Positions 36,129 through 42,549 of a stretch of DNA of 64,000 nt are shown here, one piece after another. This stretch comes from an uncultured Desulfobacterales bacterium. GTDB lineage: Bacteria > Desulfobacterota > DSM-4660 > Desulfatiglandales > HGW-15. How positions within the stretch are numbered: the stretch's first letter is position 1; each line of letters opens with the position of its first letter. Location: the NCBI GenBank assembly GCA_964647905.1, contig CAZYJR010000008.1, forward strand, positions 47,823 to 111,822. The letters are read 5' to 3'. The position numbers were made by a program, and so were the translations under genes. The notes beneath the pieces are model-generated. The model was not told the origin of the DNA and did no database searches. It saw only the letters and a list, made by a program, of their open reading frames with translations.

Positions 36129-36359
36129 TCATGTAACATTCTTTATTCGAACGGCCTCCAGCGGGCAGGCCTCGATGCAGTCCCAGCAGGCCATGCACAT
36201 GTCCTGGAAGATTGCGGGCGATTCAAAGGCCCCGTCTATCTGCTTGGCCACTTTGTGAGTACAGGCCGATGCGGCCGCACAAAGCCCCTCCTCGGGGTTG
36301 CATTCCCCGGGGTTGCATATCTCATAATCTATCATGGCAAAGGTCTTCTTGGGCTGCAT
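36129..36359 (-). CDS. Small ferredoxin-like 4Fe-4S protein
   Basis: 76 aa. Motif CMACWDCIEACP plus an atypical N-terminal Cys set (CNPGEC...C...C). Last gene of the DsrE/Lpd operon. Confidence 0.6.
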   Translation of the reverse strand: MQPKKTFAMIDYEICNPGECNPEEGLCAAASACTHKVAKQIDGAFESPAIFQDMCMACWDCIEACPLEAVRIKNVT

Positions 36360-36373
36360 TCCCGCCTTCTCTT

Positions 36374-37810
36374 CTATCCGTGGAGCGATCGACCCGCAGC
36401 CTTCAAAGAGGCCTCGAACATTATCTCGGGCAAGGTGGGATGTGCGTGAATGGTCTCGGCCAGATCGCTGACAGTCGCCCCCATCCTTACGGCCAATGTC
36501 GCCTCGGCGATCAGGTCGGTCGCATGAGGACCGATGATATGTACGCCCAATACCCGGCTGGTACCAATTTCGGAGATGATTTTGGCCTGTCCCGCGATCT
36601 CTCCCATCACCTGAGGCTTGCCCAGGGCTCTGAAGAGCACGCTGCTCGATTGAACTTCACGGCCCTGATCCCCGGCCTGAGACTCGGTCAGACCGACTCC
36701 CGCAACCTCGGGAGAGGTGAAGACGGCGTTCGGCACGGCCTGGTAGTCCATAGTGCAATCTCCTCCGGCCGCGTTCTCGGCGGCAACCAGGCCCTCGGCG
36801 GTGGCCACATGGGCCAGCATGACCCTGGAAGGCCCCAGGACGTCTCCTATGGCATACACATCAGGATTGCTGGTCACCATACGGTGATCGGCCGAGACCC
36901 AGCCCTGGCCGTCGAGCTCCACGCCGAGGGAACCGAATCCCTCGATCCCGGAGGTGTTGGGAGTGCGCCCGATACAAACCAAGACCTTGTCCACCTGCTC
37001 AAAAAACGGTTTCTTGTCTTTTTCCGTAGGGTTTTCCAGGAAAGGGGACGGACCGATTTCCACGCTCAGCCGGCCGTCCCTTTCCTCGAGACCGGCTACG
37101 GTCCTATTGAGTATGAAATTGATTTTTCGTTTCTTCATTTCCCGCTGGAGGATCTTGGAGCAGTCCTCATCCAATGAGGGCAAGGGCAGCAGGCGGGAGA
37201 GGGCCTCCACGACGGTCACTTTGGATCCCAGTGCGGAGAGCATGCATGCGAACTCGCACCCGATCACCCCGCCTCCCACGATCAGAACGGACTCCGGCAC
37301 CTCCTCCAGGCCGAGGGCGTGATTGCTGGAGAGGACCCTCTCTCCGTCAAATTCCAGACCGGGTAGCTCAAAGATGCTGCTGCCCGTTGCCAGAATCAGC
37401 TTGTCCCAGGGCACCTGCTCCTCGTCCCCATTCCCGGTCCTGACCCCGAGCATGCCGCGCCCCTTTATGTAGCCGGTTCCTTGGATGTACCGGATGCGGT
37501 TCTGTTTCAACAACTTCAAGATGCCGCTTCTCTGGTCGCTGATGACCTTTCGCTTTCTCTCCATCAAGGCAGGCATGTCGGCACGGGCCGCGCCCTCCAA
37601 GGTGATGCCGAATGATTCGGCCTTTCTGATCTTATCTAATAACTCCGCCGTGGTGATCATCACCTTTGAGGGAATGCAGCCCCAGTTCAGGCAGGTGCCC
37701 CCGACGTCATCCCTCTCTATGACGGTCACCTCCGCGCCCATCCGGGCCGCTCCCACTGCGGCTGTGTATCCACCCGGGCCTGCACCGAGTACGGCAATCC
37801 TTGTCGCCAT
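36374..37810 (-). CDS. Dihydrolipoyl-dehydrogenase-like FAD/NAD(P)H pyridine nucleotide-disulfide oxidoreductase
   Basis: ATG at 37810 after GAGAGGAG. GAGPGGY dinucleotide fold, redox disulfide GGTCLNWGCIPSK, and C-terminal HAHPTLPE His-Glu dyad. Confidence 0.85.
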   Translation of the reverse strand: MATRIAVLGAGPGGYTAAVGAARMGAEVTVIERDDVGGTCLNWGCIPSKVMITTAELLDKIRKAESFGITLEGAARADMPALMERKRKVISDQRSGILKLLKQNRIRYIQGTGYIKGRGMLGVRTGNGDEEQVPWDKLILATGSSIFELPGLEFDGERVLSSNHALGLEEVPESVLIVGGGVIGCEFACMLSALGSKVTVVEALSRLLPLPSLDEDCSKILQREMKKRKINFILNRTVAGLEERDGRLSVEIGPSPFLENPTEKDKKPFFEQVDKVLVCIGRTPNTSGIEGFGSLGVELDGQGWVSADHRMVTSNPDVYAIGDVLGPSRVMLAHVATAEGLVAAENAAGGDCTMDYQAVPNAVFTSPEVAGVGLTESQAGDQGREVQSSSVLFRALGKPQVMGEIAGQAKIISEIGTSRVLGVHIIGPHATDLIAEATLAVRMGATVSDLAETIHAHPTLPEIMFEASLKAAGRSLHG

Positions 37811-37830
37811 GGGTCTCCTCTCCCGCTCCT

Positions 37831-38163
37831 TCAAAGAATTCCTATGACGCGATCACAGGAATCCATTAAATCAACCAGAGATTCATATGAACCCGTCAAA
37901 ACTTCCTGCCCGGCGGTGCCCACCTCGATGCCCCGCAGCCGGGCGTCGTCGCTCAGGACATGGACCTCCGCTTTCATATCCATCAGCTTACGGAGATCAA
38001 CGGGCCCTGGAGTCCTTGTCCCGAGAGAGCAAAAGCGGACGCCCTCTTGCAGCAGGAAAAGGCTTACGCTGTGACCTTTTGCAAGCATGTCCTCGGCGGT
38101 CTGGAGCGCACGCCCGGCATTGTCGGTCCCGGGCCCGCTCTTGAGAAGAAGGCCTATCTTCAT
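37831..38163 (-). CDS. DsrE/DsrF/DsrH-family protein (third of three)
   Basis: 110 aa. MKIGLLLKSGPG...SVSLFLLQEGV pattern typical of the DsrE-fold family. Confidence 0.65.
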   Translation of the reverse strand: MKIGLLLKSGPGTDNAGRALQTAEDMLAKGHSVSLFLLQEGVRFCSLGTRTPGPVDLRKLMDMKAEVHVLSDDARLRGIEVGTAGQEVLTGSYESLVDLMDSCDRVIGIL

Positions 38164-38178
38164 GATCCAGCTCCTTTA

Positions 38179-38559
38179 TCAGAATATGAGTTGGAGGCTC
38201 GTTGACGTCATCAGCTCTGATAACTTTTGGCGATCAATGATCTCCAACTCTTCAACCAGGTCATCTTCACCGAGGCCCCGTTTATCGAGCGACTCTTTCT
38301 CTACGTAGAACTCTGCGGGCGTCTCCTTCTTCTCGTATAGTCCCTTTGCAATGACCTCCTCCAAGGTTTCGCTCATTGACAGCCACGGTCGCTCGCCCGG
38401 GTCTTGATCCGCTTTGGCCAAGTAGACCCCGTCATCGATCAAGACGAAGACCGGCCGAAACCCCATGGCTATGGCGCCGTTTGTATGGCGAAGCCCCTCG
38501 GCCGCCTGAAACCCCCCGTAAGGCCCCCTGCGGACGACTATCAGAACATCCTGGGTCAT
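38179..38559 (-). CDS. DsrE/DsrF-family protein (Cys-less, DsrF/TusC-like position)
   Basis: 126 aa with SD AAAGGAGGAAG. VLIVVRRGPYGG...VFVLIDDGVY pattern and no cysteine. Confidence 0.65.
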   Translation of the reverse strand: MTQDVLIVVRRGPYGGFQAAEGLRHTNGAIAMGFRPVFVLIDDGVYLAKADQDPGERPWLSMSETLEEVIAKGLYEKKETPAEFYVEKESLDKRGLGEDDLVEELEIIDRQKLSELMTSTSLQLIF

Positions 38560-38574
38560 GACTTCCTCCTTTGC

Positions 38575-38928
38575 CTAAGGACCCACATTCAAGACTACGT
38601 CGGTCTCACTCAGGATTTGAAAAAGGCTCTTCAAGGTGCCGGGAGCGGCGCCCTCTATGAACTGCTCTTTTCGCAGACCGCGAAAACTAAAGCAGGTCCC
38701 TCAGAGATCCACCCGAACCCCCTGTTCAATCAGATCGGCGAAGCCCTTCTCGGCATTGGGCGCTCCCGACGCCCTCTGCCCCTTCAAGAACCCGTAAGTG
38801 CCGTCGCCCGAGCCCACCACGGTCAAGCCATGTCCCTTGCTCTTTGCGGCCTTCGCGATCCCCAGGACGGTATCCATGTCCTGGCCGCTGTAAGGCGACG
38901 AACTCAGCATCAAGGTGATATTTTTCAT
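38575..38928 (-). CDS. DsrE-like selenoprotein (in-frame UGA = Sec at codon 76)
   Basis: ATG at 38928 (MKNITLMLSSSPYSG...). TGA at 38703-38701, then 41 further in-frame codons (GTCFSFRGLRKEQFIEG...DVVLNVGP) to TAG at 38575. The UGA sits where DsrE/TusD carry the conserved active-site Cys (V-C-G-x-C). A SECIS-like hairpin follows. Confidence 0.7.
38662..38695 (-). other. SECIS-like hairpin downstream of the DsrE UGA
   Basis: RNA CUGCU-UUAG-UUUUCGC-GGUCU-GCGAAAA-G-AGCAG: 12 bp in total, starting 6 nt after the UGA. The apical GGUCUG is identical to the E. coli fdhF SECIS loop as I recall it. Confidence 0.6.
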
Positions 38929-38965
38929 TGATCTTCGCGCCTCCTTTTCTGATAGTCTTGGTGTC

Positions 38966-39418
38966 TCAGTCAGGATTCCTTTCTCTTTGGAGCTTGGATA
39001 TAAGAAATCTAGCGCCCCTGCGGGAGAGCCCGAGCCTCCCTGCAAGGGTCTCCTCATCCACGGGTCCCTCGGCCCTGAGGATCTCGAGCACCTCGGCCTC
39101 CAGCTCATCCAGCCAGTCCTCGAACAGGACAAGCAGCTCCGGATCCGCGATGGCCCGCAGCTGTTCGGACTGAGTCACCTTGTCCACCAGGCTGCGGCAC
39201 ATCTGCGTTGGGTCGACACCTTCGCCCATGCACTCGGCCAGTCACAGATACACCAGGCCGGACACCTTGTCCCCCTCGGATCCCCCGATCATATTCATGA
39301 GAAACCGTTCACGGGCCTCTTCATCCAGGTCCGCGAGAAGCCTTCCCAGGACTTCGGTGATCTTGGACAGGGCCTCTTCAGGATCCATTCCGGCGACGGC
39401 TTGTAGGAGTTCGTTCAT
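38966..39418 (-). CDS. Candidate selenoprotein with C-terminal winged-helix (AsnC/Lrp-type HTH) domain; in-frame UGA at codon 59
   Basis: ATG at 39418 (GGAG 4 nt upstream), 58 codons, TGA at 39244-39242, then the same frame continues into the 87-aa track ORF, whose own ATG lacks an SD. Context is ...SGLVYL-U-LAEC.... C-terminal EILRAEGPVDEETLAGRLGLSRRGARFLISKLQ. Confidence 0.5.
39204..39232 (-). other. SECIS-like hairpin downstream of the second UGA
   Basis: GGGCGA-AGGUG-UCG(A)CCC with a bulged A and outer pairs. The loop GGU falls at +22..+24 after the UGA, exactly as in the DsrE gene. Confidence 0.45.
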
Positions 39419-39442
39419 TTTACTCCACGCCCCTCCGTGGCA

Positions 39443-39778
39443 TCAAAAGGTTAAGGAGGCGTTCCTGGAGGCCAAGAGCTCGGCCGCCACACCGCTCAGC
39501 TCGCCTATCACATCCAGGATCCTGTGATCCGCCAGTTCGTAGTAGACAAACGGTCCCTTGCGCTCCACCCTCACCAGCAACGAGCGTTTGAGCTCCTTCA
39601 AGTGGTGCGATACCAACGGCTGCGACAACTCCAGCTCCTCCACGATGGCAGAGACCGATTTCTTCCCCCCGCTGAGGAGCAGCAGTATTCTCAAGCGGTT
39701 GCCGTCCGAGAGGCACTTGGCCAGAAAGGCCGCCAGCTGCAGGTGATCGTCATCCAAACCTGGCACACCCTTTTTCAA
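39443..39778 (-). CDS. ArsR/SmtB-family transcriptional regulator
   Basis: NRLRILLLLSGGKKSVSAIVEELELSQPLVSHHLKELKRSLLV...FVYYEL. The start (TTG at 39778 or a downstream GTG) is uncertain. Confidence 0.85.
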   Translation of the reverse strand: MKKGVPGLDDDHLQLAAFLAKCLSDGNRLRILLLLSGGKKSVSAIVEELELSQPLVSHHLKELKRSLLVRVERKGPFVYYELADHRILDVIGELSGVAAELLASRNASLTF

Positions 39779-39801
39779 TATATAAATGAATATTTATATA
39801 T
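39778..39801. promoter_or_regulatory. AT-rich 10-4-10 perfect inverted repeat (candidate ArsR operator)
   Basis: ATATATAAAT-GAAT-ATTTATATAT immediately upstream of arsR. 19 of 21 nt are shared with the element at 40581-40600. Confidence 0.5.
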
Positions 39802-40420
39802 CATGAGTCCCCTTGTCAACGACGATTTGATCCCCCCCTATCGGCTCTTGTGGCTGCTTCAGTCCCAGCAGACCATAATGATATGGAGGCAAATCAATGG
39901 TACCCCCTTCGATTGAAAACCCGGCCTGCTCGATCCATAGGCGGCATTCAGAAGGGCGCGGCCGGATTCCCATTGAAGGGCCGCGAGGGGTGGCGGGATC
40001 GTAGTTCCAGTGGATGACCGCCACCCGACCCCCGGGTCTGAGGATGCGCCGGGCCTCGCCCAGCAATGCGAGGGGGTCTTCGGCGTGCATGATGTTGAAA
40101 AGCATTGCCAGGTCCACCGAATCCGGCGGGAGCCCGGAGCCTTGGCCTACGAAGTCGCGCAAATGAGTCTTGACGTTCCCGCAACCCATCTCTCGAGCAC
40201 GGCGCCCGCATTCCTCTATCATGGCGGGTTCGATGTCCAGGCAATGGATAGTCCCGCTTATCCTCTTGGCGGCGGGAACCGCAAAGGTCCCATACCCGCA
40301 GCCGAAGTCCACGGCGTCCCGTACGGTCCGGTCCACCCTCAGAGCGGTGAATATCCGGTCCAGGTCAAAGAACGACTCCCATGCCTCCTCGTCCGGCATG
40401 TCGCTTTCCCGGGTCTTCAT
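39794..40420 (-). CDS. Class I SAM-dependent methyltransferase
   Basis: 208 aa. Motif I VDFGCGYGTF and post-I LDIEPAM; RILRPGGRVAV. Confidence 0.8.
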   Translation of the reverse strand: MKTRESDMPDEEAWESFFDLDRIFTALRVDRTVRDAVDFGCGYGTFAVPAAKRISGTIHCLDIEPAMIEECGRRAREMGCGNVKTHLRDFVGQGSGLPPDSVDLAMLFNIMHAEDPLALLGEARRILRPGGRVAVIHWNYDPATPRGPSMGIRPRPSECRLWIEQAGFSIEGGTIDLPPYHYGLLGLKQPQEPIGGDQIVVDKGTHDI

Positions 40421-40453: not shown

Positions 40454-40540
40454 TCAAGCGGCCTCCGCCGGCAGGCTGAGCGCTCCTTTGCGGCATGCGG
40501 CAACGCACAGGTTGCACTTCAGGCAGTCCCCGTCTCGCAC
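40454..40540 (-). CDS. Candidate 28-aa mini-ferredoxin sORF
   Basis: GTG after GGGGGAGGAG. Encodes (M)RDGDCLKCNLCVAACRKGALSLPAEAA with a single C-x2-C-x2-C-x3-C motif. Lies 33 nt upstream of the methyltransferase and is below the ORF-track size cut-off. Confidence 0.3.
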   Translation of the reverse strand: MRDGDCLKCNLCVAACRKGALSLPAEAA

Positions 40541-40580: not shown

Positions 40581-40600
40581 AAATAAATGTATATTTATAT
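40581..40600. promoter_or_regulatory. Second copy of the AT-rich ArsR-type operator-like element
   Basis: AAATAAATGTATATTTATAT (core ATAAAT-GTAT-ATTTAT), lying between tauE and the sORF/methyltransferase. Confidence 0.45.
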
Positions 40601-40670
40601 GTTGTTGGAGCGTTTGTCAATCAAAATCTTCCAGCCAGCACGGCGGCTCTTCGACTGAGCCGCAGCGATC

Positions 40671-41973: not shown

Positions 41974-41991
41974 ATGCATATTCGTATGCAT
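41974..41991. promoter_or_regulatory. 7-bp inverted repeat overlapping the vapB start (candidate autoregulatory operator)
   Basis: ATGCATA-TTCG-TATGCAT. A TTGACT -35-like box lies at 41954. Confidence 0.35.
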
Positions 41992-42187
41992 GCGTACAAC
42001 GTTAAACATTGATGATGAAACTCTTGAAAGGGCCATGCAGCTCACCGGCATTCGAGAGAAGACCGCGCTGGTCAGGCGGGGACTGGAAGCCCTGATCGCT
42101 CAAGAGAGCAGCAAACGCCTGGCCAAGCTGGGCGGCACCGAAGGCCGGCTTGAGCAGCCCCGAAGGCGGCGCCCACCGGGCTTCTAG
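41990..42187 (+). CDS. vapB: VapB-type (DUF2191) antitoxin
   Basis: MRTTLNIDDETLERAMQLTGIREKTALVRRGLEALI is the canonical family N-terminus. Confidence 0.8.
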   Translation: MRTTLNIDDETLERAMQLTGIREKTALVRRGLEALIAQESSKRLAKLGGTEGRLEQPRRRRPPGF

Positions 42188-42549
42188 TGATGGTGCTCGT
42201 GGACACCTCTATCTGGGTTGACCATTTTAGGCGTGGAAACCGCCGCCTCAAGGCCCTTCTCCTGGACGCCCAAGTCGCCTGTCATCCCTTCGTAATAGGA
42301 GAGCTCGCCTGCGGCAACCTGGAAAACCGAGCTGAAATCCTCGCCCTTCTCGTCTCACTTCCAGCGCCACCGATTCTGTCCCGGGAGGAGTTCCTTCATT
42401 TCATAGACCGGCATCGCCTTATGGGCCGGGGGATCGGGTTCGTGGATGTCCACCTCCTTGCCTCGGCCCGCATTTCGGGACTGCAGTTGTGGACCTCTGA
42501 TAAGAGGCTCTTATCCGCAGCCCGGGAACTAGGCCTGTCATATGGTTGA
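42187..42549 (+). CDS. vapC: VapC PIN-domain ribonuclease toxin
   Basis: LVDTSIWVDHFR...VIGELACG... PIN acidic residues. Its start overlaps the vapB stop. Confidence 0.85.
   Translation: MMVLVDTSIWVDHFRRGNRRLKALLLDAQVACHPFVIGELACGNLENRAEILALLVSLPAPPILSREEFLHFIDRHRLMGRGIGFVDVHLLASARISGLQLWTSDKRLLSAARELGLSYG

What the first reader, a model, noticed from the sequence alone, without database searches (positions are those of the whole stretch)
38966..39418. Unannotated candidate selenoprotein with a winged-helix DNA-binding domain
The ORF track shows only an 87-aa ORF (38966-39229). On the minus strand, ATG 39418 (GGAG 4 nt upstream, 24 nt after the arsR stop) opens 58 protein-like codons. These end at TGA 39244-39242. 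Four codons later, in the same frame, comes the ATG of the 87-aa ORF, which has no Shine-Dalgarno of its own. A hairpin GGGCGA-AGGUG-UCG(A)CCC follows the UGA. Its loop GGU sits at +22..+24, the same distance as in the next gene's UGA hairpin. The joined 150-aa product reads ...GDKVSGLVYL-U-LAEC-MGEGVDPTQMC... and ends in an AsnC/Lrp-like wHTH (EILRAEGPVDEETLAGRLGLSRRGARFLISKLQ). I do not recognise this as a known selenoprotein family. A Sec/Cys-bearing wHTH protein placed between ArsR and a DsrE relay would be a plausible redox, sulfane or metalloid sensor.
Basis: partly seen in the sequence, partly recalled or inferred. Interest (0 to 1): 0.85.

Follow-up and report, generated by a model that had tools for sequence, protein, structure and literature searches.

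The report
Known selenoprotein TsoA, miscalled as short ORF

Summary
On the minus strand, ATG 39418 opens 58 codons, then TGA 39244-39242, then LAEC, then the 87-aa ORF. A GGGCGA/AGGUG/UCG(A)CCC hairpin follows the TGA.

The joined 150-aa protein scores 212.9 bits against NCBIfam NF045695, "LULAXC motif selenoprotein TsoA" (cutoff 170). The upstream ArsR matches NF045707, TsoR. The family was published by Haft & Tolstoy in 2025, so it is not new.

In 80 related Desulfobacterota loci the aligned codon is TGA in 77 and CGA in one. None has Cys. The five codons that form the hairpin show almost no synonymous variation, while flanking codons vary normally. That fits a SECIS element.

tsoR sits directly upstream in 78 of 80 loci. 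Most loci continue with TsoX, TsoB or TsoC. This window has none of them. It continues with a DsrE-like selenoprotein, DsrF, DsrH and a lipoamide-dehydrogenase-like gene, a minority layout.

The C-terminal HTH is only weakly supported and lacks a wing.

Distant relatives without Sec are Met-rich and also follow a TsoR-like ArsR gene. This hints at a ligand-sensing partner of TsoR, but that is inference.

The parts
38966..39418 (-). tsoA coding sequence, 150 codons plus stop. Sec is residue 59, in the motif L-U-L-A-E-C. Cys63 and Cys74 are invariant. The last ~50 residues are HTH-like.
   Evidence: Translation. NF045695 at 212.9 bits against a cutoff of 170, covering residues 5-146. tblastn matches to query residues 1-146/150 run across the TGA in nearly all of the 80 loci.
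39242..39244 (-). In-frame UGA read as selenocysteine.
   Evidence: The aligned codon is TGA in 77 of the 78 related loci where the motif could be read. One is CGA, in a genome that also has a TGA copy. None is Cys.
39210..39227 (-). SECIS-like hairpin GGGCGA-AGGUG-UCG(A)CCC. The apical GGU lies 22-24 nt after the UGA.
   Evidence: Part of the MFE fold and the only structure in the RNAalifold consensus of 75 sequences. Its codons show almost no synonymous variation (one GGT to GGA change) in 77 sequences, against H = 0.4-2.0 bits at flanking degenerate codons.
39423..39426 (-). GGAG ribosome-binding site, 4 nt before the tsoA ATG.
   Evidence: Read directly from the sequence.
39443..39778 (-). 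tsoR, an ArsR/SmtB-type regulator. The listed ORF starts at TTG 39778. The true start is probably GTG 39766 or TTG 39757.
   Evidence: NF045707 at 156.3 bits against a cutoff of 115, with the match starting at ORF residue 11. It lies directly upstream of tsoA in 78 of 80 loci. It has no conserved Cys; only the HH of the recognition helix is invariant.
39780..39819 (-). TTGACA box plus the palindrome ATATAAAT-ATTC-ATTTATAT. Candidate promoter and TsoR operator.
   Evidence: The 20-mer occurs twice in the window, with 0 expected by chance. A similar palindrome occurs in 64 of 80 related loci, in most of them after a TTGACA box and upstream of tsoR. The generic promoter scan did not list it under its own spacing rules.
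38575..38928 (-). DsrE-like selenoprotein gene. UGA is at 38703-38701 in a UxxC motif, followed by its own hairpin with a GGUCU loop.
   Evidence: Translation. PF02635 at 61.5 bits. Hairpin z-score -2.7. The same U is present in L014 and L070. DsrE-like UxxC selenoproteins are a listed family (PMC13188914).
38179..38559 (-). DsrF/TusC-like gene.
   Evidence: PF02635 at 46.3 bits. TIGR03010 at 43.5 bits, below its cutoff.
37831..38163 (-). DsrH/TusB-like gene.
   Evidence: PF02635 at 31.1 bits. TIGR03011 at 20.6 bits, below its cutoff.
36374..37834 (-). Pyridine-nucleotide disulfide oxidoreductase, lipoamide-dehydrogenase-like.
   Evidence: TIGR01350 at 484.7 bits against a cutoff of 408.8. It sits in the same position in L018 and L070.
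36129..36359 (-). 76-aa ferredoxin-like ORF, the last gene on this strand.
   Evidence: PF00037 Fer4 at 21.0 bits, just below its cutoff of 21.1. The next genes are on the other strand.
40581..40600 (-). Second copy of the operator-like palindrome (2 mismatches), again preceded by TTGACA. It lies upstream of a methyltransferase gene (39794-40420).

Best explanation
This is tsoA, a member of the described selenoprotein family 'LULAXC motif selenoprotein TsoA'. It is co-transcribed with, and lies 24 nt downstream of, the ArsR/SmtB-type regulator gene tsoR.

Shown:
- One 150-codon frame runs through UGA 39244-39242.
- A hairpin follows the UGA, with GGU in its loop 22-24 nt downstream.
- The UGA, the four codons between it and the next ATG, and both halves of the protein are conserved together across Desulfobacterota.

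Inferred from established knowledge of bacterial Sec decoding: SelB with Sec-tRNA binds the hairpin and inserts selenocysteine at residue 59. This gives a small helical protein whose Sec59, Cys63 and Cys74 lie in the invariant stretch L-U-L-A-E-C-M-G-E-G-V-D-P-T-x-M-C. It ends in a three-helix HTH-like domain.

Inferred function (my confidence about 0.35): TsoA is the ligand-binding partner of TsoR. TsoR has no conserved cysteine of its own. The Sec/Cys site would capture a soft ligand (a metalloid, a soft metal, or a reactive sulfur or selenium species) and modulate repression at the ATATAAAT-N4-ATTTATAT operator. In this window that operator precedes both the tsoR-tsoA-dsrE(Sec)FH-lpd operon and a methyltransferase gene.

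The confidence given below is for the identification as TsoA, not for the function.
For: Identity:
- NF045695 at 212.9 bits against a cutoff of 170.
- TsoR model NF045707 at 156.3 bits against a cutoff of 115.
- The family and its motif are listed in PMC13188914.

Read-through:
- TGA at the aligned codon in 77 of 78 readable loci, with no Cys.
- The only full-length database proteins (15 of the 120 listed hits) carry W at this column, meaning the gene caller read TGA as Trp. A standard-code translation of a more distant W-bearing hit (P0141) shows a stop codon there.
- The LAEC codons between the UGA and the ATG keep their amino acids while their third positions vary.
- The 'start' Met of the short ORF is replaced by Leu, Val or Ile in 9% of sequences.

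SECIS:
- Almost no synonymous variation (a single change) in exactly the five hairpin codons.
- The hairpin is the only element in the alifold consensus.
- The loop geometry matches that of the neighbouring dsrE Sec gene.

Partnership with TsoR:
- Adjacent in 78 of 80 loci.
- Distant Met-rich relatives without Sec also follow a TsoR-like ArsR gene in about 37 of 50 loci.
- TsoR has no conserved Cys.
- The palindrome is conserved upstream.
Against: - No experiment shows Sec insertion here.
- The Sec machinery genes (selA, selB, selC, selD) cannot be checked from a 64-kb window, and no tRNA gene lies in it.
- Rfam has no matching SECIS model.
- The hairpin alone is no more stable than shuffled sequence.
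- Its pairs are invariant, so there is no covariation.
- For the function, nothing shows that TsoA binds DNA, TsoR or any ligand.
- The HTH assignment is below Pfam thresholds.
- The structure model is poor around the Sec site, with pLDDT below 50.
- The canonical partners TsoB, TsoC and TsoX are absent from this window.
Confidence: 0.93

Rival explanations
1. TsoA is not a regulator. It is a carrier or chaperone that hands a bound metalloid, selenium or sulfane species to the downstream enzymes. Those are TsoB/TsoC in most genomes and the DsrE(Sec)FH relay plus a disulfide oxidoreductase here. The HTH-like domain would serve protein contacts rather than DNA binding.
For: - The downstream genes are all thiol, selenol or persulfide-handling proteins.
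- TsoA lacks the wing of a winged helix, and its HTH hits are sub-threshold.
- One distant relative is followed by a bona fide arsenite methyltransferase, 361 bits against a cutoff of 263.
- From my own knowledge, ars operons encode the chaperone ArsD right after ArsR.
Against: - The only universally conserved neighbour is the regulator, not any enzyme. Downstream genes differ between loci.
- The C-terminal helices do superpose on DNA-binding HTH domains.
Confidence: 0.3
2. There are two separate genes: a 58-aa peptide ending at a genuine UGA stop, and an 87-aa HTH protein restarted at AUG 39229 by translational coupling.
For: - Gene callers produce exactly these two products. Many 58-aa and ~87-aa entries exist in the protein collections.
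- The AUG lies only 12 nt after the UGA.
- TGA is a normal stop in this genome, ending both tsoR and tsoA itself.
Against: - The four codons between the UGA and the AUG are conserved as amino acids with synonymous variation.
- The AUG is CUG, GUG or AUA in some orthologs.
- There is no Shine-Dalgarno sequence before it.
- The stop is always TGA, never TAA or TAG, in 77 sequences.
- The hairpin codons are frozen at synonymous sites.
Confidence: 0.03
3. It is a pseudogene with a nonsense mutation, or the organism reads UGA as Trp or Gly.
For: JGI calls translate the codon as W.
Against: - The TGA is conserved across at least 77 species-level genomes, with both halves under protein-level constraint.
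- Neighbouring genes end at TGA.
- From my own knowledge, Desulfobacterota use the standard code and are well-known Sec users.
Confidence: 0.01

Closest known systems
TsoA, 'LULAXC motif selenoprotein' (NCBIfam NF045695; Haft & Tolstoy 2025, mSystems 10:e0141724, as cited in PMC13188914)
   Same: - Full-length HMM match above the equivalog cutoff.
- The L-U-L-A-x-C motif, with U encoded by TGA.
- The TsoR regulator gene directly upstream.
- Desulfobacterota lineage.
   Different: The name stands for a 'three selenoprotein operon' with TsoB and TsoC, and sometimes TsoX. None of these is in this 64-kb window. Here tsoA is followed by a DsrE-like selenoprotein, DsrF, DsrH and a lipoamide-dehydrogenase-like gene. 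Only 2 of 63 comparable loci share this exact layout.
DsrE-like selenoprotein (Pfam PF02635, UxxC; listed in PMC13188914)
   Same: It is the next gene in the operon. It also has an in-frame UGA, and its hairpin loop GGU sits at the same distance from the UGA.
   Different: It is a different fold and family. It is a neighbour, not a relative of TsoA.
Unnamed Met-rich relatives of TsoA found here (for example P0158, P0163, P0182)
   Same: - The same C-terminal domain, including the invariant F..W.
- The conserved P-x-x-M-C motif.
- A TsoR-like ArsR gene directly upstream.
- Sub-threshold hits to NF045695, 54-80 bits.
   Different: - No Sec and no LULAxC motif. Runs of Met fill that region instead.
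- They are longer at the C-terminus, which leaves room for a wing.
- Some pass Pfam FeoC (PF09012).
ArsR-ArsD of ars operons (own knowledge; not tested here)
   Same: A small protein with clustered soft-ligand residues, encoded immediately after an ArsR-family repressor. It is thought to bind the same metalloid.
   Different: ArsD has a thioredoxin-like fold, three Cys pairs, no HTH and no Sec. ArsR carries its own As(III)-binding cysteines, whereas TsoR has none conserved.
HTH domains of Lrp/AsnC, DeoR, MarR and FeoC
   Same: The last ~45-53 residues superpose on these three-helix cores (rmsd 1.2-3 A). Weak Pfam HTH_11 and HTH_24 hits cover the same residues.
   Different: All hits are below the curated thresholds. 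There is no beta-hairpin wing and no effector domain of those families.

Membership tests
TsoA (NF045695) | Whole-protein score at or above the curated equivalog cutoff of 170 bits. | tested here: met
   212.9 bits, E = 2.2e-63, residues 5-146 against model positions 2-143 of 144, with U written as C.
TsoA (NF045695) | L-U-L-A-x-C motif, with U encoded by an in-frame TGA. | tested here: met
   The sequence reads ...VYL-U-LAEC..., with TGA at 39244-39242. The same column is TGA in 77 of 78 readable loci.
TsoA (NF045695) | Encoded next to the ArsR/SmtB regulator TsoR (NF045707). | tested here: met
   The upstream ORF scores 156.3 bits against a cutoff of 115. The two genes are adjacent in 78 of 80 loci.
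Tso 'three selenoprotein operon' | TsoB (rhodanese/DsbD, UxxxxU) and TsoC (NEPxGxxU) in the same operon. | tested here: not met
   No motif and no tblastn match to TsoB, TsoC or TsoX anywhere in the window. The query sequences were validated as TsoX, TsoB and TsoC. They could lie elsewhere in the genome.
Bacterial selenoprotein gene | Stem-loop shortly after the UGA, with G in the apical loop about 16-37 nt downstream (bSECIS rules of Zhang & Gladyshev 2005, recalled from my own knowledge). | tested here: met
   The hairpin starts at +15. The AGGUG loop is at +21..+25. The hairpin codons are frozen at synonymous sites. No Rfam family matches.
Bacterial selenoprotein gene | The genome encodes selA, selB, selC and selD, and Sec is actually inserted. 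| not testable with these tools
   Only 64 kb is available and it holds no tRNA gene. A second Sec gene (dsrE-like) lies next door.
Bacterial selenoprotein gene | Homologs carry Cys at the Sec column. | tested here: not met
   No Cys form was found among the 78 loci read, the 15 full-length database proteins, or the distant relatives aligned. A Cys form is common in selenoprotein families but is not required.
Winged helix-turn-helix (Pfam HTH_24, HTH_11, MarR, FeoC) | Score above the Pfam gathering threshold, and a three-helix core followed by a beta-hairpin wing. | tested here: inconclusive
   - HTH_11 scores 15.8-17.1 bits against a cutoff of 25. HTH_24 scores 13.2-14.6 bits against 21.9.
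- The model shows three C-terminal helices and no strands.
- Foldseek hits to HTH domains reach probability 0.9-0.99, but E is above 0.1.
- Distant relatives P0182, P0240 and P0141 pass FeoC.

The most novel reading that the evidence does not exclude
TsoA would be the sensing half of a two-protein ArsR-type switch. Its Sec59/Cys63/Cys74 site would capture a soft metalloid, soft metal or reactive chalcogen and relieve repression, either by acting on the cysteine-free TsoR or by binding DNA itself. That would make it the first selenoprotein with a direct role in transcriptional control. The switch would be older than its use of Sec, because Met-rich relatives without Sec keep the same pairing with a TsoR-like regulator.
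Probability: 0.25. Interest if true: 0.7.

Novelty: already known. Interest (0 to 1): 0.25.

Why it matters
For genome annotation, this is one more case where a selenoprotein is stored as a truncated 87-aa hypothetical protein. Hundreds of such half-length entries exist for this family.

Biologically, TsoA has no known function. It is almost never found with Cys in place of Sec, and it is always paired with a metalloregulator that lacks sensing cysteines.

- the conserved palindrome upstream of tsoR;
- the Met-rich sister group without Sec;
- the variant operon with a DsrE(Sec)FH sulfur relay.

None of this changes the verdict. The finding as stated, a new selenoprotein family, is already in the literature and in NCBI's annotation models.

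Tried and rejected
- **Rfam.** Searched at gathering thresholds on the whole window and at E <= 10 on 38500-39500. No SECIS family matched; only chance hits appeared.
- **The founding paper.** Haft & Tolstoy 2025 is not held in the library under its PMC id or its DOI. What it says about TsoA's function and about DsrE neighbours is not known to me. I relied on the review PMC13188914 and on the NCBIfam model names.
- **Structure prediction with homolog P0001.** The model was poor (mean pLDDT 63, below 50 around the Sec site), so nothing can be said about the geometry of U59, C63 and C74. Foldseek against the PDB returned only generic HTH domains, none with E <= 0.001. A profile search of PDB sequences gave the same result.
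- **Covariation in the hairpin.** This cannot be assessed because the pairs are invariant. I used synonymous-site conservation instead.
- **TsoB, TsoC and TsoX in the window.** Searched by motif and by tblastn; none found.
- **A third Sec codon upstream of the methyltransferase.** TGA 40456-40454 is in frame with the gene. I rejected it because no hairpin follows, and the region folds worse than shuffled sequence.
- **Source organism.** It could not be named. The exact-sequence look-up gives no accession or name.
- **Metagenome scan with the broad Met-rich alignment.** It failed for lack of a conserved stretch. A narrower alignment worked.

Full report
**1. The observation**

On the minus strand, ATG 39418 is preceded by GGAG 4 nt upstream. 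It lies 24 nt after the stop of the upstream ArsR-type gene. It opens 58 sense codons that end at TGA 39244-39242. Four codons later (L-A-E-C), in the same frame, comes ATG 39229. That is the start of the only ORF a mechanical ORF list reports here (38966-39229, 87 aa).

The joined frame reads MNELL...GLVYL-U-LAEC-MGEGVDPTQMC...FLISKLQRERNPD. The predicted fold of the mRNA after the UGA contains the hairpin GGGCGA-AGGUG-UCG(A)CCC at 39227-39210. By my count on the sequence, its loop GGU lies 22-24 nt after the UGA. The GGU in the hairpin after the next gene's UGA (38703-38701) lies at the same offset.

**2. What it is**

With U written as C, the joined protein scores 212.9 bits (E = 2e-63) over its whole length against NCBIfam NF045695, 'LULAXC motif selenoprotein TsoA'. 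The equivalog cutoff is 170. The upstream ArsR scores 156.3 bits against NF045707, 'ArsR/SmtB-type metalloregulator TsoR' (cutoff 115).

A 2026 review lists TsoA (motif LULAxC, one Sec) with TsoB, TsoC, TsoX and TsoY. It credits them to Haft & Tolstoy 2025 (mSystems 10:e0141724) and explains Tso as 'three selenoprotein operon' (PMC13188914). The primary paper is not in the library. So the family is described and curated.

**3. Is the UGA really decoded?**

A search of 5.8 billion proteins found 831 relatives.
- Of the 120 best that were listed, most are 83-93-aa C-terminal halves, which are truncated gene calls.
- Fifteen of them are full-length JGI calls, and all 15 carry W at the Sec column.
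- For a more distant W-bearing hit from the representatives search (P0141), the standard-code translation of its contig shows a stop codon at that column. So W there stands for TGA.

A scan of one genome per species found 399 genomes with a relative, essentially all labelled as Desulfobacterota or delta-proteobacteria. In nearly all of the 80 best loci the tblastn match spans query residues 1 to about 146, across the stop.

The aligned codon is TGA in 77 of the 78 loci where the motif can be read. The exception is one CGA, in a genome that also has a TGA copy. None has Cys.

A per-codon analysis of 77 distinct sequences shows three things:
- The four codons between the UGA and the AUG keep their amino acids while their third positions vary, so they are translated.
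- The 'start' Met is replaced in 9% of sequences, by Leu, Val or Ile.
- Codons +6 to +10 (GGC GAA GGT GTC GAC) are exactly the hairpin. They show almost no synonymous variation (one GGT to GGA change), while flanking degenerate codons have 0.4-2.0 bits of synonymous entropy.

That pattern is what an RNA element embedded in a coding sequence leaves behind. It makes up for two weaknesses. The hairpin is not thermodynamically exceptional (z about 0). It also cannot show covariation, because its pairs never vary. Rfam has no matching SECIS model.

TGA also ends tsoR and tsoA itself, so this genome does not generally read TGA as sense.

**4. Surroundings**

tsoR is directly upstream of tsoA in 78 of 80 loci. 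What follows tsoA varies. Among 63 loci with at least 3 kb downstream:
- 43 have TsoB
- 40 have TsoC
- 15 have TsoX
- 4 have the DsrE-like selenoprotein
- 2 have DsrE(Sec) plus the oxidoreductase, as in this window

The identities of TsoX, TsoB and TsoC were confirmed on L005 at 128, 981 and 146 bits.

In this window tsoA is followed by five genes:
- a DsrE-like selenoprotein (UxxC, a listed selenoprotein family)
- a DsrF-like gene
- a DsrH-like gene
- a lipoamide-dehydrogenase-like flavoprotein
- a 76-aa ferredoxin-like ORF

After these the strand changes. No TsoB, TsoC or TsoX exists anywhere in the 64 kb. This copy therefore meets the family tests for TsoA and TsoR but not the 'three selenoprotein operon' layout.

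**5. A likely operator**

The palindrome ATATAAAT-ATTC-ATTTATAT lies just upstream of tsoR (39780-39799) and is preceded by TTGACA. A two-mismatch copy, also after TTGACA, lies at 40581-40600, upstream of a SAM-methyltransferase gene. None is expected by chance.

A similar palindrome is present in 64 of 80 related loci. In most of them it follows a TTGACA box and lies just upstream of tsoR, or upstream of a gene that precedes tsoR. The generic promoter scan does not list it, because the spacing to the best -10 match is about 15 nt. I read it as the TsoR operator overlapping the promoter. This is inference.

**6. How it may work**

TsoR has no conserved cysteine. Only the HH of the recognition helix is invariant. 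TsoA carries Sec59, Cys63 and Cys74 in an invariant 17-residue stretch.

The C-terminal ~50 residues of TsoA give only sub-threshold HTH hits. In a low-confidence model (pLDDT 63 overall, 71-83 in this part) they form three helices. These superpose on DeoR, Lrp/AsnC and Z-alpha DNA-binding domains without reaching significance. The chain ends too soon for a wing.

A profile search of 1.84 billion representative proteins found a wider, unnamed sister group:
- It has the same C-terminal domain plus room for a wing. Some members pass Pfam FeoC.
- It has the same P-x-x-M-C motif.
- It has no Sec, and runs of methionine fill the place of LULAxC.
- It hits the TsoA model at 54-80 bits, below the cutoff.

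These relatives also sit directly after a TsoR-like ArsR gene in about 37 of 50 loci. In one lineage they are followed by a true arsenite methyltransferase. No other neighbour is conserved.

So the conserved unit is the pair: a regulator plus a small protein rich in soft ligands. I therefore favour TsoA as the ligand-binding partner of TsoR, with confidence about 0.35. A carrier or chaperone role is the main rival, at about 0.3. Neither is shown.

**7. Verdict**

The selenoprotein reading is strongly supported. The claim of an unknown family is wrong. The winged-helix and sensor claims remain weak inference. Novelty is 'already known'. Residual interest lies in the unknown function, the variant operon and the Met-rich relatives.

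Noticed in passing
window 39780-39819 and 40581-40620 (minus strand); related loci L001-L080: An AT-rich palindrome (ATATAAAT-N4-ATTTATAT) follows a TTGACA box and occurs twice in this 60% GC window. One copy lies before tsoR and one before a methyltransferase gene. A similar palindrome lies upstream of tsoR in 64 of 80 related loci. It is a candidate TsoR operator.
   Followed up: partly
window 40454-40540 (minus strand): A 28-codon ORF with a ferredoxin-like CxxCxxCxxxC motif ends at TGA 40456-40454. It is in frame with the methyltransferase ATG at 40420. No hairpin follows the TGA (z +1.4 and +1.8), so it is probably a real stop rather than a third Sec codon.
   Followed up: partly
P0158, P0163, P0182, P0192 and others; loci L082-L134: An unnamed family of Met-rich small proteins is distantly related to TsoA. 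Members have no Sec, a conserved P-M-[DE]-M-C motif and a FeoC-like winged helix. About 37 of 50 sit directly after a TsoR-like ArsR gene. In one lineage (L085, L087) an arsenite methyltransferase follows.
   Followed up: partly
L089 237-746 (protein P0141): A more divergent relative carries TGA in a different motif, H-U-I-Q-T-C, again with UxxxC spacing. It scores only 79.9 bits against the TsoA model. It may be a second Sec-containing branch.
   Followed up: no
window 38575-38928 (minus strand): The next gene is a DsrE-like selenoprotein (UGTC motif). Its SECIS-like hairpin is clearly more stable than shuffled sequence (z -2.7). DsrF-like and DsrH-like genes follow. The same Sec-containing module is seen in L014, L018, L035, L042 and L070, and upstream of tsoR in L039.
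   Followed up: partly
L065 (about 2638) versus L068, same MAG: One genome has two tsoA copies. One has CGA (Arg) at the Sec column and the other has TGA. The CGA copy may be a decaying paralog or a sequencing error.
   Followed up: no
window 41990-42549 (plus strand): Two short ORFs overlap by a few bases. Judged by eye, their sequences look like a ribbon-helix-helix antitoxin and a PIN-domain toxin (VapBC-like pair). They lie just beyond the PadR and TauE genes. I did not check them against any library.
   Followed up: no
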